Positions 1-22,210 of a stretch of 22,210 bases of DNA are shown here, one piece after another. The notes beneath the pieces are model-generated. The model was not told the DNA's origin. It saw nothing but the letters and a program-made list of their open reading frames with translations, and searched no databases. The stretch comes from Fimicolochytrium jonesii (Eukaryota): positions 930,001 to 952,210 of the forward strand of contig NW_026515675.1 in the NCBI RefSeq assembly GCF_025526975.1, in the 5' to 3' direction. The position numbers and the translations under genes are program-made. How positions within the stretch are numbered: position 1 is the first letter of the stretch; each line of letters begins with the position of its first letter.

Positions 1-5
1 TGGTA

Positions 6-131
6 CAGTCACCTCGCAAAACTCTGTGCCCCCCCTCTAATTGAAATCAACATTGGTCACTCACGTGAATTTGGCGTCGCGGCAGTCGCTGATTTATTTC
101 AGGGGGGGTACAGAGTTTTGCGAGGTGACTG
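6..131. mobile_element. 126-bp MITE, Tc1/mariner-like (31-bp TIRs, TA target duplication)
   Basis: 6-36 CAGTCACCTCGCAAAACTCTGTGCCCCCCCT is the reverse complement of 101-131 with one mismatch. TA flanks both ends (4-5, 132-133). CAGT termini plus a TA TSD are typical of Tc1/mariner. Confidence 0.85.
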
Positions 132-553
132 TACGCTCGACTCCTTCTCCGCTTACCTCCTGACCTCTTCGGCGATCATGCAATTTGCAAAACCGAACCA
201 ATTTCGTTCTACGACATCATATTTATTATGACAACGAAAGGAACAACAGATCACTATCCTAGCCAAAGTGTAAACAACAAGTGGGACGCAGGCCAAGTCT
301 TCAATGGAACTAATTTGGCACATCAGTATGTGCGTGTGATCTGCCTGAATCTACTCGTCGATCTTTAAAACCCCAGTCGCAAGTGTTGCACCTGGGGTTC
401 CACAAGCAAGTGGGGAACTTGCAGTTGGGTTAGGGTTGAGATTAGCCACGAGTTGTTATTGGGCCAAGTCGCGTTTGATATACTTGAACCCTGGGACTAC
501 TTGGTTTTCGACAGACTCAAAACGAAGTTGCTTCCCACTCTCAGCAACACATA

Positions 554-3341: not shown

Positions 3342-3610
3342 ATCTAGACGCACACATATATTCATTTTGGGCTTTCGACATCTCCCCACCGTGACTCTAT
3401 TAACTTTTTGCGTGGTTTGTCTAGGCCATTATCTCCGTCATGGCATCGTAGGTTCATGAAGTGTAGCAGTTCAGCGCTCTATATCATCTTCACCGGCTAG
3501 AGTTCTCTATATCTAAACAATTACTACATATACACACATGGCACATACAGTACAATCAACAGGTCATACGCCAGGGTTATCTCACACTGCGCAAAGAAGC
3601 AGCCGCACGT

Positions 3611-5731
3611 CTACAGAACCCCCCTCACACAATCCTCCACATCCCGCACCTCCTTCGGCGCCCCGCCACTCAACACCACAGCCGCCCACCCCTCCTCCCT
3701 CCCCCCGACAAGCACATCATCCTCAATCCGCACACCCACCCCGCGCAACCCCGGCGGGTACGCGGCCGTGTCGGGGATGTACAGCCCGGGCTCGATGGTG
3801 AGCACCATCCCGGCCTGCAGCGGCGTCGAGCGCGAGACGGAGAAGGTGTCGTGCACGTCCAGACCGAGGTAGTGCCCGACGTGGTGAGGGTAGAGGGTGT
3901 TCATTTCCTGTGGGTAGCGGGAAATAAAAAAGCATGAACAGTCGTCCGTTTTTTTTTGTTTCCTGCCTTTGTTTATCACCCAACACTATCCCGGTGGGCG
4001 GGATACAAGTCTCCCCCCCGCCAAAAAAAAAAAATCCACGACACCCCAACCACCCTATCCTCGCCAACCCAGCACATACCCTCACACCCACGGCCCTCCC
4101 GAGCACCTTCTGCACCTCCACCCTCAACGCGTCCCAACACTCGCGCTGGATCGCGTCCAGGCTCGTCCGGCTCTCCACGGTGCATTTGGCGACACACTGC
4201 TTCTGAACTCTCAGCACGGCCTCGTAGAGCTGCCGTTGCGGGGCGGTGAAGACCCCGCTGGTGGGCCAGGTGCGCGTTACGTCGGCGCAGTAGGAGGCGT
4301 ATTCCTGCGGGGGGGGGGGGGGGGGAATAAAGAGTTTCATAGGTGTTAGTTTACCCCTGTGATATCGACATGGAGGGGGGGAAGATAAGAATGGATCCTC
4401 ACCGCGCCCGCATCGACCAACACCAAGTCCCCCTGTCGCAACCGCTGATCATTGACCACATAATGGATCGTCAGGCTGTTCACGCCCCCGGCGACCACCG
4501 GCACATACGCCAGCCCGCTCGCGCCTGCGCGCCGCGCCGTGTACTCCGCGAGGGCCCACAGGTCGCTTTCTGCCGTGTTGGGGAGGGGGGTTTCGCGCAT
4601 CATGGCTTTGAAGGCGCTGGAGGTGATGGTGGAGGCGGTGGTGAGGAGGGCTGTTTCTGCGCGGGATTTGAGGAGGCGGTGCGGGGTGAGGTGCGGGGCG
4701 AGGGGGTGTATGTTGGGTTTGGGGTGGGGGGTTGATGCGCGGGGCGGGAAGGCGTAGCTGGTTGTGCTGGGGTCTGGTTTGGCGGTGTTGTTGAGGATGG
4801 ATTCGGCGGGCCCGTGCAGGGGAAGGTCGGTGTAGACGGGCCGGGTGGCGGTCGGGGAGGTGAGGGTGGTTAGGTAAGATTGGAATGTGTCGATTGAGCG
4901 TGCCTGCCGTGAACGAAACATCAGAACGAAAAATTCACCCCCATTGGAATCGTAAATGACCTGCTTTGACGAACTGTACCTCGGTAGCCCCAAAGAACCC
5001 CACGGCGCCCTCCAACCCCGCCCGCGGCCCGTCCCACACGACCCGATGCGCGTCCGTCGGCTTCACAAACAAGATCATCTTGTAACCCGCCCCCGTCGTT
5101 TTCTCTACCATTCAAAGTACCATCAGTGTGTTGAAAAACGACCATAGATGTGTTGGTTGTTGGGACCGCACGGTTACCTACCCAGCACCAACGCACAATC
5201 CGGCTCGTTCACCCCACACAGATAGAACAGGTCCGTGTTCTGATGAAACGGGTAACTGCACCCACAAACATCGTCAGCCCACCCACCTCTTCGCACGTTG
5301 ATCCCCCCCCACACCCGTTATACGTACAAGATCCCCTGCGTCGCATACCGCAACCCATACCCCGCGACCACCACCACACTGCCGTCGGGCAGCCCACTCA
5401 CAAGTCGCGCACGCCGCGCCGCGTATTCCGTCCCCTGTATCCCCCGCGTCACTGAAAACCAAAAAAAAAAAAAATCAACATCCAATGCGTCCGTTGTGCA
5501 TAATGGGAAGAGAAAGGGGGGGTGGGGGCGTTTACCTTCACCCGGTTTGAGGAGATGCGGATGCGTGTCCGGCGTCGGTTGGCCGATTTTGGAGGCGGGG
5601 GTGGTTAGCCGGCGTGGGGAGGGTGATGAGGGCGCCGGGCGGGGGCGGAGGGTGCGGCATGGCGGGTGTCGTGACGCGGCGGTGAGGAGGGTGGTGAGGG
5701 TGGGGAGACGGTGGGGGGCGGGTGGGGGCAT
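3611..5731 (-). CDS. ICP55: Mitochondrial Xaa-Pro aminopeptidase (M24B; Icp55/XPNPEP3-like), multi-exon
   Basis: R/S/T/P-rich presequence, then [21 protein letters not shown]...[10 protein letters not shown]24 motifs: [59 protein letters not shown]. Confidence 0.9.
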
Positions 5732-6149
5732 TGTTGCGATGGGAGTAGGGGGGGGGGGGGGGGGGGGGGGGGGGGATGCCGGTCAAGGACGAGAATTGCC
5801 CAACGTTGGAGGTTCCCGTTTTCCCGTCGGACGCGTTCAGGGCGCACCTGCTGACCTGCATGTTCCCTCAGTGTTCTCCAGGTGTTCCCCGTCGGTGGAT
5901 GTTTTCTTTCAAACAGAACCGATGCATTGCACAAAAACGTAATACAAAAAAAAATGAGATTCCAGGAAACGGGACAGTGAAAAAAAGTCTATATATATGC
6001 GGGGAAAAGTGTCTAGTGTCTGCTATCTAGGGGAAGCTATACTGCCGTCGGCGAAAAATGCAACTACGCCAAAGTCTCCTCCCAAATCCTGATGTTTGTT
6101 TTTTTTCCATCACTCCGCCAGCGGCCAATGATGTCCTCCCTCTCCCCCA

Positions 6150-7956
6150 CTACGCCCTCAACGGCACCTCATCATCATCATCAACAACCACATCCTCCCC
6201 CTCGTCCCCATCACCATTCCCACCACTGAGAGTCTCAGTCCGGTACTGCTCGTACAAGAAATCGTGCGTGATCTCTTTGAGGTCGTGCAGGTGCGAGGAG
6301 AGGAGGCTGTAGCGGAGTTGGGAGAAGTCGCAGTGGCGGGCGTTGTCGACTGAAATCAAAAATAGGGACGGGGTCAGATTTGGGGAGAGGGGGAGGGGGG
6401 AGGGCACGGGATGGGGAGGGGGATTTGTAGTTACCTTCGACGATACCCCATGGGTACTGACGACACCTGATCCTCCGTCCGTCGATGACGACCTCGTCTT
6501 CGGATCCGACGATTGCGAATGGCAGGGCGGCCCTCAACTCCCGATTCTCCTCAATAGTCTCCTCATCATCCTCCCCCTCATCATACGGGAAATTGTAGAT
6601 CGGGATCCCGTAGTGCGCGATATCCTCCATCACGCGTTTCTTGGTCGCGGCCAGCTCGGGGGGTGTGAGGGTGTCGGCTTTCGCAATGACGGGGATCACG
6701 TTCACGCGGTGGGCGAGCTTGCGCATGAATTCGATATCGATTTCGCGGAGGCTGTTAAGGGGGGGAGAGGGTGGGAGAGTTTAGTGGGGGAGAAAGTTGA
6801 TTTGGAGGGAGGGTATTGGTACTTACGAGTGGCCGGTGGGAGGGATAAAGTACAGGAGGACGTGGACGCGGTTGTCTTGGGATTTGGGGTTACGTTTGAT
6901 GCGGGACTCTTCTTGGAGGACGTCGTCGAATTGTTTTTCGATGTAGGCGAGGATATCCGTGAAGCTGTAGGAAAGAATTCGCATGTGAGTGACTGAATGG
7001 AGAGGAAATGGGCGAAGAATCCGGTGACTGGTACATACGCTCCCTCGTTGTTGATGTTGTCGCCGAACCCAGGGGTGTCGACGATCGTCAATGCCAGTCT
7101 GATACCATCTTCCTCCATGTCTAGTATAAAACAGTATATCATCGTCAGCCAGGTTGAGCTCTGATCAATAACTCGATCATCACCCCGCAGCGCAGTCCCA
7201 ACATACCAACCGACACGGGGTTTATGCTGACGGTCTTTTCGAGGGCAGCTTTTTCGGGGCTGGAGTGGTCGTACTTGCGGACGACGGGTGATTCGCATAG
7301 GGTGTTCAGGAAGGTCGTCTTTCCGAGTCCCGAGGAGCCTGTACATTTGATGAGAACGTAAGAGGGTGTTCCACCAGTTGGAAACCGACATTCGCACGAC
7401 ATCCTTCGAACGACAGCGAGCAGGAAGGAGTTGGACCGAGGAATAAATAGCCCCGTGCCAACTCTCCAATTCCCCTCCCCTCCCATCCCATCCCATCCCA
7501 TCAGGTTAGGCTGTAGACCGCGCTGTGTCAAACATTCTCTCGTCAACCCCGCCTCCGGGCTCGCAGTCCCTGTCGCTCTTTTTCTCACTGTCGTTTGCGT
7601 TTCCTCGCTCGTCCGGCCTAGCCTCTATCTCTCTCGCCGTCCTTGCGCCCTCTCCTTTCCAAGCCCAACTTTGATTTCCTCCGCCCTCCACTCCCCAAAC
7701 TCGGCCCTCGCTCGATTCACGACTCCAACTCCCGCGTCCCGACCACAGACTCCGGCCCCCCCTTCAACATACCAACGGTCATGATAGTGAAGGCCAAGCC
7801 CTTCTTGACGGTCTTCCTGCGAATGTTGGAGGCCTATAAGCATGAGGGGGGTTGCGTACAACAAAACAAGTTAGAAGGTTCTTTTGTGACGCTGACCCGA
7901 CGGAGGGTGCGACGACCGATATAGAATGCGGTGCGGGGTAGCCAACGTACCAGCAT
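6150..7956 (-). CDS. CDC11: Septin, Cdc11/Spn3/AspA group, multi-exon
   Basis: Inferred 6-nt first exon ATGCTG|gtacgt (7951-7956), then exon ASNIRRKTVKKGLAFTIMTV (~7774-7833). G1 GSSGLGKTT, G3 DTPGFGD, G4 AKAD, LPFAIVGS, RQYPWG, and HLHDLKEITHDFLYEQYRTETL typical of the Cdc11/AspA group. Confidence 0.85.
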
Positions 7957-8443
7957 GGTAGCAGTGGGGGGGTTTACTTTGGGAGGGAGGGAGGGGGTTC
8001 TGTGTCTGAAGTGGAGAGGCGGTTGGGTAACCAGAAGTGAGTGACGGCTGGCTGGCTGGCGGGCGTGCGGCTTTGCGAAGTGACACCGCGCAAGTTTGTC
8101 TCGTGTGAGGAGGAGTCTCGCGAGTCGCTCGCTGATGCTGAGGGATGAGGGATGAGTGAATCTGAAGTGCGTGTGCGGCATCCATCCATTCATGCATTCG
8201 GGCTCTGTCGTTTTTAAGTTGATAGCACGTGGGATCATGCACTCACATGAGCCAATTGAATTGACCTGAAGGAAGGGAGAATGGATGATGTCATAGGCAG
8301 GTTGTCAACCTCATCCACGCGTAACAAGTAACTGCAAGGACAGACAGGGCAGGCAGGCAGGCAGGGCTTAGCATCATTCATCATCATCCCTCGTGCCCCC
8401 CACGCGCGTCCCTCCCCTCGCTCAACTCTCTCCGTCTGCCAAG

Positions 8444-8450
8444 TATAAAA
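8444..8450 (+). promoter_or_regulatory. TATA box of the 8612 gene
   Basis: TATAAAA ~170 bp upstream of ATG 8612. Confidence 0.5.
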
Positions 8451-8611
8451 AGGGGCTGGCTGGCTTCCCATACCCCCCCGCCCCTCCGCTATTCGAGCAT
8501 CGAACATATCGCCCCCCCCCCCCCCCCCCCCACACATAATATATCCTTATTGCCAATTCCACAACTACAACTTAACCCCCCTCACATATCACCAATTCAC
8601 ATCAAACAACC

Positions 8612-9960
8612 ATGTCGGAACAGAAAAACATCACCAAAACAGAGATCGACACCCAGTCCGGTTCCGCCTACGAATACCATGGTGGGAGTGCGCCCCCAAA
8701 GGCGACCGATAAGGTGTTGGAGCCAAAGGTTGTTGAGGAGGAAGTCAAAGGTACACACAAAGGAGAAGTGGACGGCGAGCGTTAGCGAGAGGATTGCTTT
8801 TGAGTTTGAGCGAAGCGAGGCGCAAGGTTGCTTGAGGGTGGGGAGGGTTGCGGAGGATTGCGCGAGGGTCCGAGCGAAGCGAGGCGCAAGGATGCTTAAG
8901 GAAACACGTGGCCGCCCAACATCCTCGTACGCAACACACAATGCGCACACACACCAACATCATTGTTCCCTCCCTCCCTCCCTCCCCATTTCACAGAGGC
9001 CATAGTCCACGAAAACATCACCGCCATCGAACGCGAAGAAATCCAACCCATCATCGAGCGCGAGCGCCTCCAGACCGAGATCGTCCAAGTCGTCCAACCG
9101 GTCCTCGACGTCGTCACCGAGGCCCCCACCGTCGAGAAGGTCCAACTCGAGGAGGAAACCCACAAGTACCGCGAGAAAGCGAGCGAGGAGGATATTAGGA
9201 AATATGAGGAGCAGGCGGAGGCGTTCAGTGAGGAACGCAGGGAAGAGGTGGTCCATGAGAAGGTCTATAAGGCCCCCATTATTCATGAGGTGGTAAAGAC
9301 AAAAGTCATTACGGAGGTTCAGCCCGTGATTGAGAGAGTCATCAACAAGACTCATGTCATCGAGGAGTAAGTACCAGCGAACGCGCGAATGGAGTGACGG
9401 AGAGCGAACGGGCGAGCGAAGCGAGGACTACTGCAGTAAAGTACGAGCGAAGGATGCTAATCCACTCCCCTCCTTATCCCAGAACACAAAACATAAAAGA
9501 GACCTTCGTAAAAGCCCCCATAGTCCACGAGCAACAAATCGCCGCCCCGATCTCCATGTCCGAATTCGCCGCAGGCTCCACACCCCTCAAGCGCACTCGC
9601 GGCACATCCCTCAGCCCCTCCCCGTCCACCACCACCACCCTCACCGGCACGCCCCCGGGCCCCATGACCCGCCTCAAGCGCAAAAAGCTCGCCGAAGCCG
9701 CCGAAGGCCCCACCTCGCCGTCTTCCCACTCCCATGAAACCACCTCGCTTGACATCACCACACCCACGCCCGCGGAACCCTCAACAGTCCACGGGACATT
9801 GGAAAAGATCGTGGGGGTTGTGGAGGCGGGTGTTGGGGAGCTGTTGGGGAGCGATCGGTTGGTTGTGGAGGGGGAGATGAGGAAGGCCGGTGGGGAGGAG
9901 GAGATCAGGGAGGCGAAGAGGAGGAGAGTTGAGAGGGGCGAGAATGGGGTGGATGTTTAG
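8612..9960 (+). CDS. V/I/E-rich repeat protein (fungal 'allergen'-like) with CsbD-like C-terminus; 3 exons 8612-8750, 8997-9366, 9483-9960
   Basis: Phase-compatible GT-AG junctions. Repeated motifs AIVHENI..EREEIQPIIERE / APIIHEVV...EVQPVIERVI / APIVHE. The tail GTLEKIVGVVEAGVGELLGSDRLVVEG resembles CsbD-type repeats. Family names are from recall. Confidence 0.7.
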
Positions 9961-11516
9961 GAAGGGCGTTTTGGGAGACACGTTTGATGTGGATTGGTAC
10001 CCGCGCGCACCCCGTATATGCAGACGGGAGTACATACATACGACTGCATTCTTTTTTTCTATTTGATTATGCTTTTCAGCGGTGTATCATACCATACCGT
10101 CTGTCCTGTAAATAAGAAACCATTTTGTCGCTGCAACGTGTGTCCTTGGGGTTGTAAAGCGAAAGACCCGTCTTTTTTGATGTCCAAGAGCAACACGCGA
10201 CTGGCACTTTCGGACCATCGTCGGCCGGCTTGCTTCTTTGAAAGCCTTTGAACACCTCCACCAGCAGCTCAATTACGCCACCCAGCAACTCCACATCAGC
10301 AGCAGCCTCGGGTCCACCTTCATCTCGATCCCCATAACCCAACCATCCCTCACCTCAAGGATGGTCCCCGCAATGTCCAACCACACTCATCCCAACCCCA
10401 CCTCCGCCTCCGCCCCTTCTCCCCCTCCCGCCACCCCTCCCCCACGCCCCTCACCCAGCCGAAAATGCACAAACCCCTTCCCGCTGACCTGCGAAAGCAT
10501 GTGGAAGTACGTGCGCGGGGACGTCGTTCATGCGCAGTTCGAAGCGCACTACTACAACGCCTAGCAGTCCGGGGTTGCCAATATACGGAGTACACCCAAG
10601 CGTGTCTACTTGTGTGGTGAGAATAGGGATTTAGTTGGTCTCTACCTTTTACCTTGCACTCTCCACGAGTAGATCATCTCCACCCGCGAACGACCCAATT
10701 TAGGACCTATCTCAGGGAATAATCGACCACTTTCACACTAGTGCACGTTGCCTGGAAGCCAGTGGACAGTCTCTGCCTTAGAGGAATGTCTTAGAGGAAT
10801 GTCAGGAGGGGGTTAGGGTTAATCCCCCACATGGAGCTAGAGATTGCAATTCATCAGCCGCAGGCAGATCCCAAAGGCACTCACAGCATTACCGGTTCAA
10901 GCGTGAGATGGTGGCATGTAGCTGACTATCCCCAGCTGGTCAAAGAAAAAAATTCTTCACGTATGTATGGGAAGATGTCTGTGAAATGGTCTTTGAAATG
11001 GTGGAGGAAGAAGAGTCACTGTCAGTCAGATGCGGCACGAGTCGCGGCCGCTGGTCTTATGAGCCCTGCGCGTTTCCCCCGTACGGGACGCCGAACAATT
11101 CACCATAGGGCTTTGTCTGCTTTGCAGCCATAGAATAGACCACTTGCGGATCTGTTGTGGAACTCGTTACTTTATTCCCCTTCACACACACCACTAGTTT
11201 TATAGACATTCGATCGGACGGTCTGCACACACACACAACCAGCTCTCTATCTGCAGAGAAGAAAAGGGGTACGGTAACTATAAAAAGGAAGCTGTGGCTG
11301 AAACTGGTTGTTTACAACAGGATCTCCGAGTCCCAGAAGTCACACAGACCCTGCAGACTCCGTTTGCATTGTTCTATCTCTCCCCCCCCGGTCAAGCCAT
11401 CCTAGGCACGACCTGCTATACCCTTTGGACAAGCGTAAAATCCCAATGCCTTGTCCGTGCTCGCGACCTATATCAGTACCCGTCCGGGCCTTATCCTTAC
11501 GCGCAGAGCTGGACCA

Positions 11517-14500
11517 ATGGCCGAGGAAGCCGATGTCAGGGAGCTCCTGATGACCGGACAGCGTTGGATCAAAGATTTCATCGACGCCCATCTTCGATAT
11601 CGAGCGGAGTTACCTCCATCGCTACAAATCAAGTTTTCGAAGCGCATTCTTCAGTTACTGCGCCCCGGGTTCTCCTCGTCTCCACCGGCCACCGGCGGCA
11701 TCTGTTTATCAATCAACGTCCCTCCAGAAAAAGCAGACCACTTCTTCCAGGTTGTGATGAACATCGGAAACAATTTGCACGAAATTGGTCGGCTTCAGGA
11801 CGCACTAGAAATCTTCCAATTCCTCGAGCAGACTACGGACGACTCAGACGTAAACGTTCCCGCCAAGGCTGGGCAGGCCCTTTGCTACATTAGCCTGGAT
11901 GATCCTAAATGCATTGAACTCAATGAAGACTGCATGAGGATCATAGAGCTGCACATCGGAAGTGACGAGCAGAGAGAGAGCAGGCCAACGCACGCGTTCA
12001 ATCTCAGCTTGCAGTATCTGAAGTGCTACTGTGGAAACCTGCAGTACCGCGGGTTTACAGACGATCCATCTGAAATAACGCAGAAGGCATCACAGCAGCT
12101 GGACTGGATGGCAACAGCCATTTCTCGAATGGAAAGGGAAAAGCATATCTGCGAGCAGGACGTACGCGAGCGCCGTGGCCTCGTTGAAGTTCAACGGTCC
12201 AGCCTTCTGTTCAACAGGGCCAACGCGCATTTCGGGCGGAAACAGTACGAACAAGCGGATACACTCCTGAGGGAGCGGTTACAACTCCAACCTCAAGCGC
12301 CGGGTTATCTTGTCGCTCCCCTCCATCTTCTGGTTCGTACTTTGTTGGCGAGAGGAAGGCTGGCGGAAGCCTACAAAACGGCACGGGGCGCATTGGACCA
12401 GGCCCGCCAATGCGGCAGTACAGTCTTTGAAGCTAAGATCCTGGTAGAGCTGCATGGGATTGCGCAACAAATCGACAAACGTAATGCCAGGTGGTACCTG
12501 ACCGAAGCTTGCCGGTTGCAGTCGCAGGCTCCTCTCGAAGCCACACTAGCAGCGGAGCTCGTGCATGCTCTTCGCCCAGTGAGCCCCTCAAACGGAGATA
12601 TCGCCCTGATGAAAGTTTTTGAAGGCTGGCTACAAGACAAAATCAGATCGTACGGAGCTTCTACCTCGATGCCAACTCAATTATACCTGGCTATCCGTGC
12701 AGAGCAGGCAAATCTTGCATCGGAACTTGCCCGCCTCGATCCAGACCGGAAACAACAAGCGATGAAGGTTTGCCAGGAGATCTTAAACGATATGGACATG
12801 CGGATTGGAAGCAGCGAAGGCATTGGAAACATCACCGAATGGTGCCATAAAACCAGTCCCCGTCCATTGTCATCAGTGTTATGTGCTTACCTCCAGCTGC
12901 TGCAAGATGAGGAAACGGAAGATTGGAAGACCAAGCGCACCGCCATCGAGACGCGATTGAGCTCTTTGGATGATGATTTCGTGCGGACTCGTCTCGCTCT
13001 GGCACGGGTAATTCGCGGGAACGGCCGTCTGGACGATCTGGAACCGTCGTTCAAGATGCAGAACCACCGCGAGGCAAACTGGAGAACTCTGACGGACGAA
13101 GAACATCAGATCAGCGGCGCAGACGGGCTTTGGTCCGATCTTGCTCAAGTGCTCTACTCCCTGTGTAATTTCGCATTAGTTGGCGCCAACGAGAGCCAGC
13201 GCTTTCAAAAAGCAGCCTTTTACGGAGATCGTATGATCAACATCAACACGCTTAGTCTTTTGCAAGCTGTAAGTGCTGATGTTACTATTTCGTTACGTTA
13301 TTTCCAGCTTCATTTCAACAAGTTTTGCTAGCGCAAGGTCTCAGAGTTTCCTGATTGGTATCTTGGCCCCTTGCCCGCGTCGGAAAGCGCCTTTTCCGAG
13401 TCCATCGGAGCCTTAATCCGCAAACTTGAAATTACAGTGGTTCAGTACATCTTGCTGAAGGAAGTTGCCCACGACTGGTGTCTGTATACATGGGTCACTG
13501 TGCCAAATCCGACCGGTCCAATACCCTCCGTACGTTTTTTCCGTGAGAAGCTCGACGACTTGTTCAACACGCCCAGAGGTTGCGGAATGGAAGAGCTGGA
13601 GAGATTGATCGCAGTGTTTAAAGACACGATAAGAAGCGGGTCGAGCTTCTCAGAGCGGAAGAAGCGAATGGATGCTTCCGAGGCCAATGACGGCTGCTTG
13701 CATAAGTTGTACAGCATACTAATCGCGCGAATCAGCCGGGAACAGCTGTTTCCTGCCCAAGAAAACGGTGCCGTCGTTTTTGTGCCCTACGGTATACTGT
13801 GTCGGGTGCCGTTCCCAGCACTGAAACCCGCCGCGACCGGAACGTATCTCATCGAGCGCTTCCACGTCTGCACCGTGCCTTCCTTGCGCCTATTGCACTT
13901 GCTACACACTCGACGTCCCCAGGACAAAGCATTTCAACCCGTAAACCACAAAGCCTTGATTGTCGGGGATCCTAAAATGCCGACGTTTAGCGCCTCCGAA
14001 CCTGTGTCAATACCTCTTCCGGGCACGAAAAAAGAAGCAGACGACCTTGATAAGCTACTTCAGGAACGGGACGCGCGAGTCACCAAGCTCATTGGTGCTG
14101 CAGCTACGAAGTCGGCAGTTCTCGCGGAGTTGAAGTCGACAGATCCTTTGCACCTTCTGCACATTGGAACTCACGGCTCGGAATCGGATTTTCTGGAAGG
14201 CGGCGTTTACCATCCAGGTTCCTTCCTGCTAGCGCCGCCAGGATCTCAGCCTCCATACCCAACCCGAGACAAATGCACCCTCTACGCAACCGAGCTCCAG
14301 CAAACAGACCTGTCCAGCTGCCAGCTGGCCTATCTTAGTGCCTGCCAGACGGGTCTTGGTCGAGGGTCCAGCGATGGGACGATCGGTCTGAGTCGAGCAT
14401 GCTTGGTGGCTGGATGCCACGCCGTCCTTTCCTCGCTTTGGAGGATCAACGATCAGTTCAGCTCCGAATTCTGCGAAGTTTTTTACGACGAGTGGCTTAG

Positions 14501-14618
14501 GAATGGGAAATCGCAGCTGTCGGCGTATCGAATTGCCATGATGAAAGGCGTTAAGAAAGGGCTGAATCCTGCACTGTGGGCACCGTTTGCAATTGTCACG
14601 GCCGATCTCGCTCGCTAA
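11517..14618 (+). CDS. TPR-CHAT (caspase/HetF-like) protease, ~1012 aa; one intron 13269-13331 (an additional 5' exon is possible)
   Basis: The two long ORFs join in frame through GCT|gtaagt...ttttgctag|CGC. Helical TPR-like N-terminus (GNNLHEIGRLQDALEIFQ; LARGRLAEAYKTARGAL). CHAT motifs: VPYGILCRVPFPAL, ALIVGDP, LPGTKKEA, catalytic LHIGTHG and LSACQTG, LSSLWRINDQ, WAPF. Confidence 0.9.
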
Positions 14619-15001
14619 TGCCTCACTCAAATTCTGTACGATATCGTACGATAAGCGACCGGAGGATGCGATGCGCGAGCTACAGTTGTTGAGCTTTATG
14701 CGGGGGATGGGGAGGTGGGCGGTGCACAATGGGAGCGCGTATAAATCGAAAGTTTCCGGCGGCTCACTTGACTCTGTCTTTGATGGTCTAGAGGGCCTTC
14801 GTGTATGTCTCCTGACTTTTTCGAGCTAATACAGTTGGCGGCTTCCGCAGCTTGTAGGTGCACATTTAGACTTTCATCCGGATATGTATTTGTGACATCG
14901 TAAAAAAATACGCCAAGAATGTATCTGCAAATAGTATATGTATGCAGCGATTGCTCTGATCCATATGAGAGCGTACGATACCCCTCGTCTCCTCGTTTCC
15001 T

Positions 15002-15505: not shown

Positions 15506-16094
15506 TGTTATGATCTCGACGACTGAGGCGGAAGCGAAGTAGAGAAGACAAGGCGAGAGCGATGGGCGACAAGAGATTGTATTGGCGAAACAAGAGACAA
15601 GGACTAGAACAAGAGACGAGAAGAACTGGTGTTGATCTGCTGGGGAGGAAGGGAATGGACGAAGAGAGGCCGGCTATTTATAGATAGACAACCCAGCAGA
15701 TCAAAGAACAACAACAAGAGGGGACTGGGGGGGCGCCAGCTATGCTCCTAGAGCGGGCGTGGCGAGCGTAGAGAGCATTGCTACAGCTGCTGGCTATGGA
15801 GAGGTAGTGGGGGTGTGGAGAAGCCATGGGGGGATTGGCGAAATGAGAGGAGAGAGGAGGAGTGGCGATATTGCGGGAGGATTGGCAAAATGAGAGGAGA
15901 GAGGGGGCTTGGCGAAATGAGAGGAGAGAGGAGGAGTGGCGATATTGCGGGAGGATTGGCGAAATGAGAGGAGAGAGGGGAAGTGGCGTTGACATTGGCA
16001 TTGACATTGGCATTGACATTGTCATTGACATTGGCGTTTGACATTGGCAGCTGTCAGTAGGTAAGATTATGGTATGAGCGCGTCGTCCATAACA
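15506..16094 (-). mobile_element. 3' LTR (589 bp) of Ty3/gypsy chromovirus, element 1
   Basis: Minus strand runs TGTTATG...CATAACA (7-bp terminal inverted repeat). It is preceded by the polypurine tract AAAGGGAGGGG (16098-16108). Internal TATAAATA at 15675-15682. Confidence 0.8.
15833..16050. repeat. Tandem repeats inside LTR 1
   Basis: Four copies of the TTGGC(G/A)AAATGAGAGGAGAGAGG core, followed by ~12-bp GACATTGGCATT units. Confidence 0.8.
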
Positions 16095-16106: not shown

Positions 16107-16447
16107 TTAGCGGCGGCGGCGGCGGCGTCGAGTCTGGTGTGGTCACAGAGGAGGAGCACCGGGGACGGAGGAAGGCTTGTTGGGGTATGCGCTGTGGAAG
16201 TCTTTGAGGAGTGGGTTGGTATGGGTGAGGTGTTCCCCGGGTTCCCAGGTGTTCTCGGAGTCAGGCCAGTTTTGCCCTTTGCCCAAGTACTGAAGGTGAC
16301 GACAATGGATGCGGGAGTCGAGGATGGCTTCGACACCCCATTCTTCTTGCCCCTCAACGTTCTCGGGGGGCGCAGGTTTGGGTTCGTGTCGTTTGGCAAT
16401 GGTGTAGCAGGGTTTGAGAAGGCAGACATGGAAGACATTGTGGATTT
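16107..16447 (-). pseudogene. Integrase C-terminus + chromodomain remnant of element 1
   Basis: IHNVFHVCLLKP...EEWGVEAILDSRI...LQYL...DSENTWEP..HL, with an in-frame TGA before a terminal RRRRR*. Confidence 0.88.
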
Positions 16448-16743
16448 TGTAAGTAGGCTCTCGGGGATATCTCATCTTCACTTGTATTTCATATTATATC
16501 TCTTTACTTCTACTTGATCCGAGACCCGGGCTGGCCACCCAAGCTCTCGGTGATACATTACATAAGGCGCCAAGCCTCACTAAAGCCACGCAAGCCCCAC
16601 TGGCAGCCTATATGATAAGCTGTCAGTCGAGCGGCCGCTGCGAAGAGCTTCTTACTTTTTTCTTCACTACAATACACTGCTCTCAGCCCTCTCAGAAGGG
16701 CCCAATATCGTCTACGTTTCCTCTGACGTTATATGGTAGCACC
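16448..16743 (+). mobile_element. Probable 5' LTR (16448-16733) and primer-binding site (16734-16743) of element 2, nested in element 1
   Basis: TGTAA starts exactly where element-1 integrase similarity stops. The segment ends TTATA (probably a mutated TTACA), followed by TGGTAGCACC, which resembles a tRNA-iMet PBS. An alternative boundary TGTATT..AATACA (16483-16676) is possible. Confidence 0.6.
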
Positions 16744-16827
16744 ACCTACCGCTAGCATCACCAAGACATTCCTCGTCAACGTCGCCCCTCTACCGGACGT
16801 CGCCCTTACACTCGTTCACAAGCAAGA

Positions 16828-17196
16828 ATGGACCACCAAACTCAAGCTATCGTTGCGGCTGTTGCAGCTGCTTTCGCTACTCGGGAGCGTGCTGTTACGC
16901 AAGACACCCAATGAGCCGAACGTTTCAGACTTCTTACAGACGCTCGCAAGAACAAGCTCGTCGAATACGATGGCGCCAAAGCTGCCAAAAAGATCGAAGA
17001 GTTTGTTACGCCTCACAGGAACTTCCTCGAGTCTCTCACTGTCCCGGCTGTACAAGCTGGACCAGACGGTACTGGAGCTGCCAACGCCATAGCCTTTACT
17101 ATGACAGAGTACGCTCCTACGCTCACTACCTACCTCAAGGGTACTGCTCTCGAGTGGTACAATACGACTTACGCCGTCGGCGCTCCCGCAACTTGG
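16828..17196 (+). pseudogene. Ty3/gypsy gag N-terminal fragment (element 2)
   Basis: Read manually, absent from the ORF track: MDHQTQAIVAAV...Q*AERF...EYDGAKAAKKIEEF...YLKGTALEWYN...PATW, a retrotransposon capsid pattern. TGA at 16912. Confidence 0.75.
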
Positions 17197-17213
17197 ACCC
17201 TAACCCTAACCCT
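17197..17213 (-). repeat. Short interstitial telomeric sequence, ~3 units, inverted relative to the main arrays
   Basis: ACCCTAACCCTAACCCT exactly at the gag/chromodomain junction. Confidence 0.85.
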
Positions 17214-17841
17214 GATAACCGAGCCATTTGACTAGAAGATTTCGTATGGCACATCGCTCGTCGATGATATCTTCCACAACCCATTCAGGTTGTCCGCGTT
17301 CTTCAGTTGGTGGAGGAGGTTGTGGAACTGCACGTTGCGGATATTGCTCTTCGCGATGTGGTCGTAAAATATCGACGTGAAAGACGGGCCAGATGCCGCT
17401 GATCTTTGATGGTGATAAATCGAGTTCGTAGGTATCAGGATGTGCTCCCAGTGCGATAATTTTGAATGGTCCAATCCAAGTAGCTGAGTATCAAAGTCCT
17501 CTTCGAGCGTCTACTTCTAGGTTGATTCCTTGTCGATTTAGATCGACGAGGTCGCCAATTTTATATGCAATTGGCGTTCGACCTTTGTCGTGTTGACGTG
17601 CGAATTGATCTTGCGATCTCTGAAGGTTTTCGCGTACGATACAGGCGATGTCTTCTTGCCCTTTCTTGAAGAGTTCGATTTGTTTTCGATCTACAGCTCG
17701 AAGTTTGAGTTCTTGTCCTTCGAGTGTTGGATTCCAACCCGGGAGGATTGGAGAGCGTGCGAGATCTACTTCGAATGGCGATAAACCTTCATATTCCTCC
17801 CTCGGAGCGGTATTGTATGCGAATTCGATTAAAGGCAATAG
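17214..17841 (-). pseudogene. Ty3/gypsy integrase core end + GPF motif + partial chromodomain (element 3)
   Basis: LPLIEFAYN...SPFE...YKIGDLV...*...WIGPFKII...TYELDL...WPVFHVDILRP...EWVVEDIIDER...LVKWLGY. One in-frame TGA at 17491-17493. Confidence 0.9.
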
Positions 17842-17842
17842 T

Positions 17843-17977
17843 TTAGGGTTAGGGTTAGGGTTAGGGTTAGGGTTAGGGTTAGGGTTAGGGTTAGGGTTAG
17901 GGTTAGGGTTAGGGTTAGGGTTAGGGTTAGGGTTAGGGTTAGGGTTAGGGTTAGGGTTAGGGTTAGGGTTAGGGTTA
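17843..17977 (+). repeat. Telomeric array 1, (TTAGGG) x ~22
   Basis: Perfect TTAGGG tandem. Confidence 0.98.
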
Positions 17978-19014
17978 CAAGACCCCCTGGGTTGGGTTTT
18001 ATTATTGGGTTGCCTGGAACCCTAGGGACTTAGAAATTTTCGAGTTTTTTGGCTTTTGGGTGTGTTCTACAGTTCGAATTTTTGACTCTGAGGGATGTAG
18101 TGGCGGGGGGTGTTGCGCACCTAGGCAAGTCGGGGAGGACTAGGTGTGCAAGGGCAAGTGATGGGTCATATGGGCGGTGGTGCGGGTACGGGGGGCGGCA
18201 GGGGTGCCAATAGGGGGGGGGGGGGGTTGATATAAAGGGGACATATATGTTATATATACGTTATAGGACTTGTGCAAATTGGGATTTTTCTAGTGCCGAT
18301 CCGGAGTTGGCGTCCTAATTGAAAAGTTGGCCCCATATCATATTCTCTAATTGAAGTACTCTCGGATTGGCAATCCGTGCGGAAACGGCTTCAGAAACTT
18401 AGAAAAACGAAATTTTCACGCGACGGGGGGTAAAAAGTTGGAAAATGTGGTGATATCTCAACATCTGGCTGACTATCCAGTGTAGGGCACTTAATGAAAG
18501 TTGATTGTAGCCTATGGTTTGCATAGCTGATGTGGTAGCAAATCTTGTGTAACCTCGCTTTTGGCTGAAGAACAGGGCCCCTTTTCAATTCTCAAGTAGT
18601 GACCCCCAAGACCTCCTAACAAAAGACACGAGTACGTATGTGCAGGCAAAGGGGTTTGGCTGTGTTCTCCAGTAAACATTTTGTGATTCCGCTGTGCATC
18701 GTAGACTGTTTGTAGGACCCTTGCGGAATGTCATTTACCAAAACTGTTGAACATTTTCCGGTTAAAGCAGTGTTCTACAGTTTGTCCATGCAGGTTAGAG
18801 CACGTGACCTGGGCTTGCTTGCAGGGTACGCAGAGTGAGAGGGTTGGGGTTAGAGATTTCCCAGATCACTTATTAAATTCAGCCAAACTGTCTCTGTCAT
18901 GGAACATTTAAAATGGTGGAAAGTAGTATTGCATTTATTGATTTAGAGTACATTGGAAAAGCGCACATTCAGAAAAGGGTTTTGGTGTAAAGTTATCAAC
19001 GACATTCAACAGTA

Positions 19015-20583
19015 CTAAAGGACTTCCGCAAGCATGTCACGGACTTGGTTCTGTCCAAAAGTCGTACGGCACTCAGGGTACCTGGCGCAGCGGAGACGGA
19101 AACGATGCTGACCGCCAATGCTATGAAAAGCTGAGCCTCCACAGTTGGGACATTGAAGCTGATCACGATGCTGATGGAAGAGTTCACGGATATTGCCAAT
19201 GGGAGCAGCATCAGGCACTTCCCCATCCCCATGACCCCACCAAGCACGAGCAGGATCAATGACGGGTGCAATGCCTTTGAACCATCCGGGATTGAAACCA
19301 AAAGAGTTGAGAACATCTCGGAAGCGCTGACAGTCTGTCACAGTAGTCTGTCCATTGCGATCTCCTCTGAATAGAACTCTGGTGGCAGCGTCCATGATGC
19401 CATTGATGAGACCGTAGTACTCTTCCACCGGCACAAGCTTCAAGGAGTTTGCGCCCATGTGCTGGAAAATGGTCTCGATCTGGTCCAAATGGAGATTCAA
19501 AACCATCTGTTCCGCTGATTCCAACCTGGCGCACTGAACTCGCACTTCAACTCGCATGCCAGTAATGTGGAGCGGGTGACTGTTGAGCCATTGACGTAAA
19601 CCTCTCAGTGTCTCACTGCGATCACCAAGGCTGGACTTGGTTTGGGGCATTCGCGAAGACAAAGTCGAGGAGTAGGCTTTCAGCGCATGAACAAGCTTTG
19701 GGTAGCAAGTAACCCGAACATTGGCGTGACCCGCAATGTCAAAGCGGGTGGACCCAAATCCCTCACCAAGGATGGTGAGCATGGGAAAGGTGGCGCCAAC
19801 TCCACGTCCATTGTAGCGAACCAAAGGAATGACCCCATGAGTGTTCAACGTCTGACCAATGTCCCATGTGTTCAGTGCAGCATTGGGATGGTTGCTCACT
19901 TCCTGATCAAAGGAATAAGCTGGCAAAGTCCGAATGCGTTGCTTCATTCCATACTGCACAATGCGTACAGAGGGTGACACAGCACCAATGATGTCCTGGA
20001 ATCCAGACATCAACAGATTTTGCCGCCCAGCAATCAATCGTGAGTGATCCGTGCTTTCCCTCACGATGATCGAATGTTCATTGTGAAGTAACTCAAGAAT
20101 CCTTGCCTTTGACTCTGGATTGAATGGAATGCTAATGATACAAGGTCTGCTAGCGATCCGCATCCAACCGGCGAAAGCTTCACTGTCCTTGATATGCTGC
20201 ATCACTCCAGACAGTTCAACCAAGGTGAAGGCACCAAAGAGGGTGGTCAGCTTTGTGGTAGGGAGCGTAAAGGCCATCCAGTCCACATCAAAGTAGCCAG
20301 TACTGCGAAAGACCCCAAACTGCTCATCCTGAGGGGCAGGAGAGTGATGGTGTTCCTCATCTGAAGAGCTTGAGCGAGAAGTTGGCAACTCGATGTCCTC
20401 ACGCCCCTCATCACTATGATGATGAAAGTTGGAGCCGTTTGAACCAGAAATGGACAACTCCACATCCAAACTGCCGATGCTGGATGAGGTCTGGGAGATT
20501 TCGACCTGAAGGCTGGTGTTTGACATGGATGAGGTAAGGCTCGACGGCGAAAGGGTGTTGTTGGTGAATGCGGTGAAAGGCAT
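19015..20583 (-). CDS. 522-aa intronless protein of unknown function; disordered S-rich N-terminus, alpha/beta core, C-terminal C4 Zn ribbon
   Basis: Long uninterrupted ORF with upstream TATAAAA (20693-20699, minus strand). CPNCGG-x-CARYPEC resembles the topoisomerase C4 zinc finger. Confidence 0.85.
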   Translation of the reverse strand: MPFTAFTNNTLSPSSLTSSMSNTSLQVEISQTSSSIGSLDVELSISGSNGSNFHHHSDEGREDIELPTSRSSSSDEEHHHSPAPQDEQFGVFRSTGYFDVDWMAFTLPTTKLTTLFGAFTLVELSGVMQHIKDSEAFAGWMRIASRPCIISIPFNPESKARILELLHNEHSIIVRESTDHSRLIAGRQNLLMSGFQDIIGAVSPSVRIVQYGMKQRIRTLPAYSFDQEVSNHPNAALNTWDIGQTLNTHGVIPLVRYNGRGVGATFPMLTILGEGFGSTRFDIAGHANVRVTCYPKLVHALKAYSSTLSSRMPQTKSSLGDRSETLRGLRQWLNSHPLHITGMRVEVRVQCARLESAEQMVLNLHLDQIETIFQHMGANSLKLVPVEEYYGLINGIMDAATRVLFRGDRNGQTTVTDCQRFRDVLNSFGFNPGWFKGIAPVIDPARAWWGHGDGEVPDAAPIGNIRELFHQHRDQLQCPNCGGSAFHSIGGQHRFRLRCARYPECRTTFGQNQVRDMLAEVL

Positions 20584-20692
20584 GGTGTCGGCCCTGGTGT
20601 TGGCAATGGTATTGGTGTTGGTATTGGCGTAGGTGCTGAAACGTGGTGGTGGTGCGTGCTTTTGGAGGGAGGGAATCTGAACAGCCCTCTCC

Positions 20693-20699
20693 TTTTATA
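20693..20699 (-). promoter_or_regulatory. TATA box of the unit A ORF
   Basis: TATAAAA ~110 bp upstream of the ATG at 20583. Confidence 0.55.
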
Positions 20700-20736
20700 A
20701 AAGTCTGGCCAAAGGCAACCTGGAGCTGTTCTTCAG

Positions 20737-20874
20737 TTTTTTTCTGCAACCCTCCCCTTTTTTTTTCCTAACTTTTTTTTCTTCCTTTTTTTTTTTTCAC
20801 TAATCCTTTTTTTCTCGACTTTTTTTTTCACTAATCCTTGTTTTTTTCCTGACTTTTTTTTTCCACTAATCCTT
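20737..20874. repeat. T-tract-rich degenerate repeats at the distal end of unit A
   Basis: CACTAATCC at 20798, 20829 and 20864, separated by long T runs. Confidence 0.75.
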
Positions 20875-21141
20875 TTAGGGTTAGGGTTAACCCTAGGGTT
20901 AGGGTTAGGGTTAGGGTTAGGGTTAGGGTTAGGGTTAGGGTTAGGGTTAGGGTTAGGGTTAGGGGTTAGGGTTAGGGTTAGGGTTAGGGTTAGGGTAGGG
21001 TTAGGGTTAGGGTTAGGGTTAGGGTTAGGGTTAGGGTTAGGGTTAGGGTTAGGGTTAGGGTTAGGGTTAGGGTTAGGGTTAGGGTTAGGGTTAGGGTTAG
21101 GGTTAGGGTTAGGGTTAGGGTTAGGGTTAGGGTTAGGGTTA
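20875..21141 (+). repeat. Telomeric array 2, ~44 units with variants
   Basis: TTAGGG tandem containing one inverted unit (20889-20894), one TTAGGGG and one TAGGG. Confidence 0.98.
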
Positions 21142-21691
21142 CAGGACTGTTCCCGGTTATGGGTTATTTTTGGCCATCCAAAAAGTGTCAAACAAAGTTG
21201 CTAGCAATGTTCAGGGGCATCTTACTGTAATGTGCTTCAAATTTTGGGGCATGTTTTCCACTCAATGCCCCGGGAAAATCTGTTTTTCCGATTTTTTACT
21301 ATGAAAATATTGCCAAAATGCATTTTCTGAAACTCTGAGTGGATGGATTTCGCTTAAAGTGGAATATGTCTCGGAAAACATCCCCAAAAACATCTAGGAA
21401 CCTTCATCTACTCTAGTATTCATCAACTCCTGGTACTTTTTGTTTCCAGGCAATATGGGGGTGTTCTCTAGTTGGCGGCGAATGACTCATTTTGGTTTGC
21501 TCTCAATTTGCTCCATGTTTAAATCCTTTTAAGGCCCAAATACTTTCTTTTCTTCCATTGCTCCTCCTGTTGGTGGAGGATGGCAAATGCCTTTTTGCAT
21601 TGCAATACATGGATATGACAGGGTGTTTGTCAACCAGCAAATCATGGAAAAAGCATGCAGTGCATGTCCATTTGCATGCCCTATGTCATCC
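21142..21691. other. Unit B: 550-bp insert between telomeric arrays
   Basis: AT-rich, CpG-poor, no convincing ORF. Begins CAGGAC after GGGTTA, similar to the CAAGAC start of unit A. Confidence 0.6.
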
Positions 21692-21809
21692 GTTAGGGTT
21701 AGGGTTAGGGTTAGGGTTAGGGTTAGGGTTAGGGTTAGGGTTAGGGTTAGGGTTAGGGTTAGGGTTAGGGTTAGGGTTAGGGTTAGGGTTAGGGTTAGGG
21801 TTAGGGTTA
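21692..21809 (+). repeat. Telomeric array 3, ~19 units
   Basis: Perfect TTAGGG tandem. Confidence 0.98.
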
Positions 21810-22210
21810 CAAGACCCCCTGGGTTGGGTTTTATTATTGGGTTGCCTGGAACCCTAGGGACTTAGAAATTTTCGAGTTTTTTGGCTTTTGGGTGTGTTCT
21901 ACAGTTCGAATTTTTGACTCTGAGGGATGTAGTGGCGAGGGGTGTTGCGCACCTAGGCAAGTCGGGGAGGACTAGGTGTGCAAGGGCAAGTGATGGGTCA
22001 TATGGGCGGTGGTGCGGGTACGGGGGGCGGCAGGGGTGCCACTAGGGGGGGGGGGGTTGATATAAAGGGGACATATATGTTATATATACGTTATAGGACT
22101 TGTGCAAATTGGGATTTTTCTAGTGCCGATCCGGAGTTGGCGTCCTAATTGAAAAGTTGGCCCCATATCATTCTCTAATTGAAGTACTCTCGGATTGGCA
22201 ATCTGTGCGG
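21810..22210 (-). mobile_element. Second copy of unit A (runs off the window)
   Basis: Direct repeat of 17978-18382 with only a few substitutions and short indels. Confidence 0.9.

What the first reader, a model, noticed from the sequence alone, without database searches (positions are those of the whole stretch)
17978..22210. Tandem, telomere-embedded 2.9-kb gene-bearing element with no RT, helicase or DDE motifs
Seen: (TTAGGG)22 - unit A - (TTAGGG)~44 - unit B - (TTAGGG)~19 - unit A'. Both A copies join the array at an identical register (GGGTTA^CAAGACCCCC) and differ at only a handful of sites over ~400 bp. The ORF is intact and points away from the presumed chromosome end. Known: elements living inside telomeric tracts include yeast Y' (helicase), Magnaporthe MoTeR, insect SART/TRAS and Penelope-like Athena/Coprina (RT-based). 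I see no YxDD, Walker A/DEAD, HUH or DDE motif here. Inference: this may be an undescribed telomere-targeted mobile element or a recombination-amplified telomere cassette.
Basis: partly seen in the sequence, partly recalled or inferred. Interest (0 to 1): 0.88.

Follow-up and report, generated by a model that had tools for sequence, protein, structure and literature searches.

The report
Telomere element with Rep_trans-like nickase
A 2.9-kb DNA unit sits in tandem inside a fungal telomere and encodes a protein predicted to be a plasmid-type (Rep_trans-like) DNA-nicking enzyme, so it is likely a new kind of telomere-targeted DNA transposon using an enzyme class so far described only in bacteria and archaea.

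Summary
In detail: (TTAGGG)22.5 - unit A (2.9 kb) - (TTAGGG)~44 - unit B (0.55 kb) - (TTAGGG)19.7 - A' (cut by the window end; 398 of 401 aligned bases identical). All three units join at GGGTTA|CA(A/G)GAC, and A and B share a left-end motif.

The 522-aa ORF belongs to an unnamed family (156 clusters at 50% identity). Its named members are chytrid and basidiomycete fungi, and Fimicolochytrium has two identical copies at adjacent locus tags. No homologue (0 of 150) has an RT, helicase, HUH, DDE or recombinase domain.

The AlphaFold model (pLDDT 94-96) has Rep_trans rolling-circle initiators (RepDE, RepSTK1; TBP-like fold) as top PDB hits, at modest scores (Foldseek E 1e-3; Z 6.6). Near-invariant D101, D241, Y294, R344 and E346 fall in the order of the Rep_trans metal triad and catalytic tyrosine.

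Best reading: a telomere-targeted copy-paste DNA element mobilised by a non-HUH tyrosine nickase, with B as non-autonomous partner. Nicking, mobility, copy number and telomeric location of homologues are untested (no genome held). My paper searches found no eukaryotic Rep_trans-fold enzyme or transposon.

The parts
17843..17977 (+). Telomere tract 1, (TTAGGG)22.5; begins inside a retrotransposon integrase-like frame, likely a de novo telomere addition
17978..20874 (.). Unit A, 2897 bp (right end may extend to 20898/20901 to include the palindrome)
17978..18015 (+). Left terminal motif of A, beginning CAAGAC, shared with B; candidate nick/recognition end (inferred)
   Evidence: 3 of 5000 shuffles and 1 of 5000 random windows score as well
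19015..20583 (-). 522-aa ORF (P0001): low-complexity residues 1-~90, TBP-like/Rep_trans-like core ~95-380 (D101, D241, Y294, R344, E346), C-terminal zinc ribbon ~476-508
20694..20700 (-). TATA-like box (TATAAA) about 110 bp upstream of the ATG; promoter role inferred
20758..20876 (+). Subterminal array, 3.6 copies of a ~31-bp T-run/CACTAATCCTT repeat; candidate protein-binding sites (inferred)
20888..20901 (.). Perfect 14-bp palindrome TAACCCTAGGGTTA (inverted telomere unit) near the right end of A; forms a hairpin
   Evidence: 0 of 1000 shuffled termini as stable
20875..21141 (+). Telomere tract 2, ~44.5 repeats with variants
21142..21691 (.). Unit B, 550 bp, no ATG-started ORF over 44 aa; begins CAGGAC; likely non-autonomous partner
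21692..21809 (+). Telomere tract 3, (TTAGGG)19.7
21810..22210 (.). Unit A', second copy of A's first 401 bp, cut by the window end

Best explanation
Unit A is likely a telomere-targeted, copy-paste DNA transposon whose single ORF is predicted to be a Rep_trans-like (TBP-fold, non-HUH) metal-dependent tyrosine nickase, and unit B is likely its non-autonomous partner. Shown: the array, the shared GGGTTA|CA(A/G)GAC junctions, the intact ORF and the family's near-invariant D/D/Y/RxE residues. Predicted: the fold and the roles of D101, D241, E346 (metal) and Y294 (nucleophile). Inferred from Rep_trans chemistry: Y294 nicks the G-rich strand at GGGTTA^CA and stays on the 5' end; host replication displaces the unit's + strand up to the telomeric repeats at the right end; that 5' end is joined to a telomeric ...GGGTTA-3'OH (a nicked repeat or the natural single-stranded G-overhang); telomerase or the captured repeats rebuild a tract beyond it. 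Repeating this gives head-to-tail units separated by telomere tracts. TTA stands on both sides, so end and target look alike, as in rolling-circle insertion, and need not be a target-site duplication. Odds by step: nickase about 0.8, selfish mobile unit about 0.75, this exact joining route about 0.35.
For: Fold: models at pLDDT 93.6 and 95.6. Foldseek's top 6 PDB rows for the long model and top 2 for the core are Rep_trans initiators (4cwc E 1.1e-3, prob 0.99). VIA-align against 48,161 chains ranks RepSTK1 first (Z 6.6, rmsd 4.3, 181 aligned, model 1-285) and its top 5 rows are all Rep_trans or TBP (same picture). Residues in 118 aligned rows: D101 84/85, D241 117/118, G277 118/118, K292 111/118, Y294 117/118, R344 113/115, E346 114/115. 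RepD uses D46, D142, E214 for metal, Y191 as nucleophile, with conserved G180, R189, R212 (PMC4797284, section read). Five Rep_trans motif profiles slid along the family profile rank the expected sites 2, 2, 3, 1, 1 of about 278, in order (the sites were chosen beforehand from conservation). Element traits: same junction register in A, B, A'; shared A/B left end; terminal hairpin; identical protein at adjacent locus tags in Fimicolochytrium jonesii; OTU domain in 22 of 150 homologues and no RT, helicase, HUH, DDE or recombinase domain in any. Tract 1 starts inside an integrase-like frame, so the units were likely added beyond a newly made telomere.
Against: Fold scores are modest: no Foldseek hit at E<=0.001, TM about 0.35, Z under 8, TBP only about 1 Z lower. 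Profile-profile alignment to Rep_trans was not significant (probability under 1%), and no Pfam, PHROG or NCBIfam Rep hit appeared. The R140 equivalent is not conserved (T239 variable), the canonical YxxK motif III is not matched, and P0001 has T at the K292 position (3 of 118 rows). Active-site geometry could not be measured on the model. No genome, so copy number and other chromosome ends are unknown. The only homologue locus I could fetch (L001, a short match in frames broken by stops) has no TTAGGG pair in 3108 bp. The right ends of A and B are not alike (1213 of 5000 shuffles), and the hairpins at A-left, B-left and B-right are no better than shuffles.
Confidence: 0.58

Rival explanations
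1. The protein is a Rep_trans-like nickase, but it replicates a plasmid-like circle (unit plus telomere repeats) by rolling circle. The circle re-enters chromosome ends by homologous recombination between TTAGGG tracts, as recalled for yeast Y', not by enzyme-catalysed strand transfer.
For: All characterised Rep_trans-fold enzymes are replication initiators or relaxases, not integrases (PMC13107129). D-loop and rolling-circle array growth is proposed for MoTeR arrays (PMC7367193 passages).
Against: Tract lengths between units differ (44 vs 19) and A and B alternate; PMC7367193 treats identical spacers as the mark of D-loop or circle amplification. A and A' differ at 3 substitutions.
Confidence: 0.2
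2. A and B are RT-less passengers (MoTeR2- or Athena-like) copied onto the telomere 3' end by a reverse transcriptase encoded elsewhere, and the ORF is cargo.
For: Same head-to-tail geometry and orientation as MoTeR arrays, 5' end towards the chromosome end. An AATAAA lies on the minus strand about 22 nt before A's left junction.
Against: No poly(A) at any junction. The TATA-like box lies about 175 bp inside the right end, so a normal transcript would lose that end (inferred). The ORF keeps a catalytic-looking residue set across chytrids and basidiomycetes.
Confidence: 0.09
3. The ORF is a host or domesticated gene (a TBP-fold DNA-binding or telomere-processing protein) duplicated passively by subtelomeric recombination.
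For: TBP is nearly tied with Rep_trans in Z (5.5 vs 6.6). The subtelomere shows several break-and-heal scars. L001 is not telomeric.
Against: Invariant D/D/Y/RxE set; exact and shared junctions; the family appears patchily and mostly on short contigs.
Confidence: 0.1
4. The arrangement is an assembly artefact (chimeric joins of telomeric reads).
For: The window ends inside A'; no reads spanning the array were available.
Against: A and A' differ by real substitutions; B has its own version of the junction motif; two 151-nt contigs of a soil run match the ORF at 151/151 and 148/151 (may not be independent); adjacent identical copies in F. jonesii.
Confidence: 0.03

Closest known systems
Rep_trans (PF02486) initiators RepD/RepC of pT181-family plasmids, RepSTK1, and MOBT relaxases
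   Same: Predicted TBP-like fold; metal triad D/D/E, a single tyrosine and RxE in the same order on predicted strands (PMC4797284, PMC6499999 passages).
   Different: No sequence-level match; about 35 extra residues of helical insert after the tyrosine with invariant H299/K302; zinc ribbon and often OTU; fungal and chromosomal instead of bacterial plasmid or ICE.
Rep-Arvir (archaeal TBP-fold RCR endonucleases; PMC13107129)
   Same: A distant Rep_trans relative recognisable only by structure, with similar Foldseek scores reported there.
   Different: Archaeal viruses and plasmids, wHTH fusion; not compared directly here.
MoTeR1/MoTeR2 and FoTeR (fungal telomeric retrotransposons; PMC7367193, PMC12857005 passages)
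   Same: Head-to-tail mixed arrays separated by TTAGGG tracts; coding strand pointing away from the chromosome end; long plus short partner.
   Different: They encode or borrow an RT with REL endonuclease; MoTeR2 shares 860 and 77 bp ends with MoTeR1, whereas A and B share only a ~35-bp degenerate motif.
Helitrons, Replitrons, IS91 (rolling-circle transposons; PMC10288648 passages)
   Same: Likely tyrosine nicking, oriented site-specific insertion, terminal hairpin, non-autonomous partners; OTU accessory domain (recalled for Helitrons).
   Different: All use the unrelated HUH fold; no HUH motif here.
Leishmania TATE (PMC2696322 passages) and yeast Y' (recalled)
   Same: Tandem elements inserted at a fixed position in telomeric hexamers or between telomere tracts.
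   Different: TATE encodes RT and a phage-integrase domain, Y' a helicase; neither is found here.

Membership tests
Rep_trans / PF02486 | Match to the PF02486 profile or significant profile-profile similarity | tested here: not met
   No hit; 0 of 150 homologues; hhalign probability under 1%
Rep_trans / PF02486 | TBP-like fold of the catalytic domain | tested here: met
   Predicted model only; top rows are Rep_trans and TBP over the whole domain, at modest scores (Z 6.6, rmsd 4.3, 181 aligned)
Rep_trans / PF02486 | Three distant acidic metal ligands (motifs N', I, IV) in order | tested here: met
   D101 84/85, D241 117/118, E346 114/115; ranks 2, 2, 1 of about 278; by sequence order, not by 3D distance
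Rep_trans / PF02486 | Catalytic tyrosine in motif III with canonical basic neighbours | tested here: inconclusive
   Y294 117/118, rank 1; -2 position K in 111/118 but T in P0001; +2 position R or K in 84/118
Rep_trans / PF02486 | Metal-dependent nicking and religation with a 5'-phosphotyrosine adduct | not testable with these tools
   Needs biochemistry
Rep_trans / PF02486 | Homodimer | tested here: inconclusive
   The complex prediction gave no verdict
Telomeric non-LTR or Penelope-like retroelements (MoTeR1, FoTeR, SART/TRAS, Athena) | Encoded reverse transcriptase | tested here: not met
   No [YF]xDD; no RT Pfam hit in P0001 or 150 homologues
MoTeR2-type non-autonomous retroelement | Termini shared with an RT-encoding element in the same genome | not testable with these tools
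   No genome held
HUH rolling-circle transposons (Helitron, Replitron, IS91) | HUH motif and Rep fold | tested here: not met
   No HUH pattern; no Pfam hit; model is TBP-like
DDE cut-and-paste transposons | Terminal inverted repeats and a DDE transposase domain | tested here: not met
   End-to-end inverted match only 10 bp and internal; no transposase catalytic domain in Pfam
Yeast Y' / telomere-linked helicase cassettes | Helicase ORF | tested here: not met
   No Walker A or DEAD/H pattern; no Pfam hit
Telomere-targeted mobile element (general) | Many copies at several chromosome ends, polymorphic between strains | not testable with these tools
   No genome; only 2 copies of A seen here

The most novel reading that the evidence does not exclude
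A new class of eukaryotic DNA transposon, spread across chytrid and basidiomycete fungi, that uses a TBP-fold (Rep_trans-like) tyrosine transesterase to paste itself onto the telomeric G-strand: the first eukaryotic branch of this enzyme superfamily and the first use of it as a transposase.
Probability: 0.5. Interest if true: 0.93.

Novelty: categorically new. Interest (0 to 1): 0.85.

Why it matters
A 2026 paper (PMC13107129; passages and first part of the Discussion read) describes Rep_trans-fold nickases as bacterial, newly extended to archaea, while the eukaryotic rolling-circle transposons it and PMC10288648 discuss use the unrelated HUH fold. If this reading holds, it adds a eukaryotic branch of the superfamily and a new transposase chemistry. 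It would also be an RT-free way of colonising and lengthening telomeres, and it gives a function to an unnamed fungal family of more than 150 clusters. The claim is directly testable with one protein, four point mutants and short oligonucleotides.

Tried and rejected
No genome for this window, so no copy count. Sequencing-run search listed one soil DNA run with 6% of words and no RNA holder; nothing laid on unit B. Neither bears on expression or absence.

No relatives confirmed in viral contigs (junction pattern) or prokaryote genomes; these word-based scans are insensitive. The phage tblastn gave only two E 0.02 rows. A profile search of PDB sequences gave 0 hits. Rfam gave 0 hits over 16500-22210. 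PHROGs and NCBIfam gave nothing useful for 10 proteins.

hhalign against a 104-row Rep_trans alignment was not significant. ESM Atlas rows naming Rep_trans or Phage_CRI scored 0.77-0.79, leads only. The viral fold library had no hit at E<=0.001; its top row was an inovirus protein. The homodimer prediction returned no verdict.

The tree (quick method, 108 of 118 rows, 10 short rows left out) places the query in a 14-row set with the F. jonesii protein; I draw no conclusion on origin from it. No earlier findings of the scan were returned.

Paper searches listed nothing on a eukaryotic Rep_trans-fold element or on six homologue identifiers. I saw most as listings only; subscription journals, Repbase and bioRxiv supplements were not visible.
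Full report
Observation. The window is eukaryotic, with F-BAR/SH3, septin, TPR and CHAT gene pieces; the nearest named relative of the ORF is from a chytrid, so the host is probably a chytrid fungus (inferred). Three TTAGGG tracts (22.5, 44.5, 19.7 copies) separate unit A (17978-20874), unit B (21142-21691) and A' (21810-22210, open). A and A' have 398 identities, 3 mismatches and two 2-nt gaps. All three units begin at GGGTTA|CA(A/G)GAC. The first ~38 bases of A and ~35 of B are more alike than 4997 of 5000 shuffles and 4999 of 5000 random windows, with lengths chosen after looking. The right ends are not alike (1213 of 5000). A's right end has 3.6 copies of a ~31-bp repeat and a perfect 14-bp palindrome, TAACCCTAGGGTTA, at 20888-20901. 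There are no terminal inverted repeats and no poly(A) at the junctions.

Context. Tract 1 starts inside an integrase-like frame that runs on into a chromodomain-like stretch (17214-17842, minus; family recognised by eye). A short inverted telomere run (17197-17213) and a second chromodomain fragment (Pfam) lie further in. The end has likely been broken and re-capped, and the units were added beyond the new telomere.

The protein family. The 522-aa ORF has 156 relatives at E<=0.001 among 1.84 billion representatives, 150 listed. Of 30 looked up, 7 clusters carry an organism name, all fungi: Fimicolochytrium jonesii, Phlyctochytrium arcticum, Ustilago trichophora, Puccinia triticina, Tremella mesenterica, Trichosporon asahii and Tilletia horrida. 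F. jonesii has the identical protein at consecutive locus tags 570366 and 570367 on one contig, which suggests a tandem pair like A and A'; its flanks could not be read. Pfam on all 150 finds OTU in 22 (17, one of them under the curated cut-off; 5) and no RT, helicase, HUH, DDE or recombinase catalytic domain.

Fold. AlphaFold models of residues 90-522 and 95-380 are confident (pLDDT 93.6 and 95.6). VIA-align over 48,161 chains gives RepSTK1 Z 6.6 (rmsd 4.3, 181 aligned, whole domain), then TBP 5.5 and RepDE 5.5. These scores are below the tool's own caution line of Z 8, and hhalign sees nothing, so the fold alone is suggestive.

Active site. RepD uses D46, D142, E214 for metal and Y191 as nucleophile, with conserved G180, R189, K193, R212 (PMC4797284, section 11). 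In 118 aligned rows the family keeps D101 (84/85), D241 (117/118), G277 (118/118), K292 (111/118), Y294 (117/118), R344 (113/115) and E346 (114/115), plus D99, K214, N238, H299 and K302. RepSTK1 reads VDWLQVT at its first metal aspartate and P0001 reads VDWMAFT. Sliding five Rep_trans motif profiles along the family profile ranks the expected positions 2, 2, 3, 1 and 1 of about 278, collinearly; the positions were picked first from conservation, so this is support and not a blind test. Against: no R140 equivalent, a long helical insert after the tyrosine, and T instead of K at 292 in P0001 itself. By profile the protein is not a member of PF02486; it is predicted to work like one.

Mechanism. 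Rep_trans enzymes nick one strand, hold the 5' end on tyrosine and free a 3'-OH (PMC4797284 and PMC13107129 passages). Every unit here has GGGTTA on its 5' side on the G strand, which is also what a telomere offers as a target. The simplest model is a nick at GGGTTA^CA, displacement of the unit, and joining to a telomeric GGGTTA-3'OH, followed by re-extension of the tract. All of this is inferred. A circle replicated by the same enzyme and re-entering by recombination fits nearly as well. A retro-passenger has the same geometry (MoTeR arrays, PMC7367193 passages) and has an AATAAA near A's left junction in its favour, but would not explain the conserved catalytic set or the ~175 bp of element beyond the TATA-like box.

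Limits. No genome was held. One soil run holds two short contigs matching the ORF at 151/151 and 148/151, the one listed change being synonymous. The single homologue locus fetched is a broken fragment without telomere repeats, so telomere targeting is shown only for this window.

Novelty. Ten paper searches listed no eukaryotic Rep_trans-fold element. PMC13107129 (2026) calls the family bacterial, extended there to archaea. Papers seen as passages: PMC6499999, PMC10288648, PMC7367193, PMC12857005, PMC2696322; as passages plus one section or part: PMC4797284, PMC13107129. Statements on Y', Athena, SART/TRAS and OTU in Helitrons are recalled.

Verdict. Real and unusual: likely a new type of telomere-resident DNA element with a Rep_trans-like nickase. 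Interest 0.85; mechanism confidence about 0.58.

Noticed in passing
window 17197-17842: LTR-retrotransposon-like integrase C-terminus plus chromodomain-like fragment (minus strand; recognised by eye), cut by telomere repeats at both ends: tract 1 on the right and an inverted (CCCTAA)2.8 run at 17197-17213 on the left; looks like break, telomere addition and fusion scars.
   Followed up: partly
window 16143-16481 (-) and ~16900-17197 (+): A second chromodomain/SH3_Tf2 fragment (Pfam Chromo E 3e-9) and a gag-like fragment (motif recalled) that ends at the inverted telomere run.
   Followed up: partly
window 11451-14618 (+): Adjacent TPR (626 aa) and CHAT (415 aa) ORFs in the subtelomere, probably one gene or a TPR-CHAT pair.
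   Followed up: no
window 15829-16049: Purine-rich 74-bp tandem duplication followed by a 12-bp/6-bp repeat array.
   Followed up: no
window 18231-18270: A TATA-rich stretch on the + strand near A's left end, after a G run, with no ATG-started ORF over 40 aa downstream on that strand before the main ORF; possible antisense promoter.
   Followed up: no
window 17978-21691: CpG is depleted in unit A (observed/expected 0.61) and B (0.30) against 0.93 in 1-15000, which may reflect methylation of these repeats.
   Followed up: no
L001:1881-2306: Short homologue match in frames broken by stops, on an AT-rich metagenome contig with no telomere repeats; may be a decayed internal copy.
   Followed up: partly
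proteins P0101/P0260 cluster: Trichosporon asahii homologue cluster has 15 members at 90% identity; the full-length 994-aa ones lie on 4.0-6.1 kb contigs, about the size expected for a repeat-bounded element.
   Followed up: no
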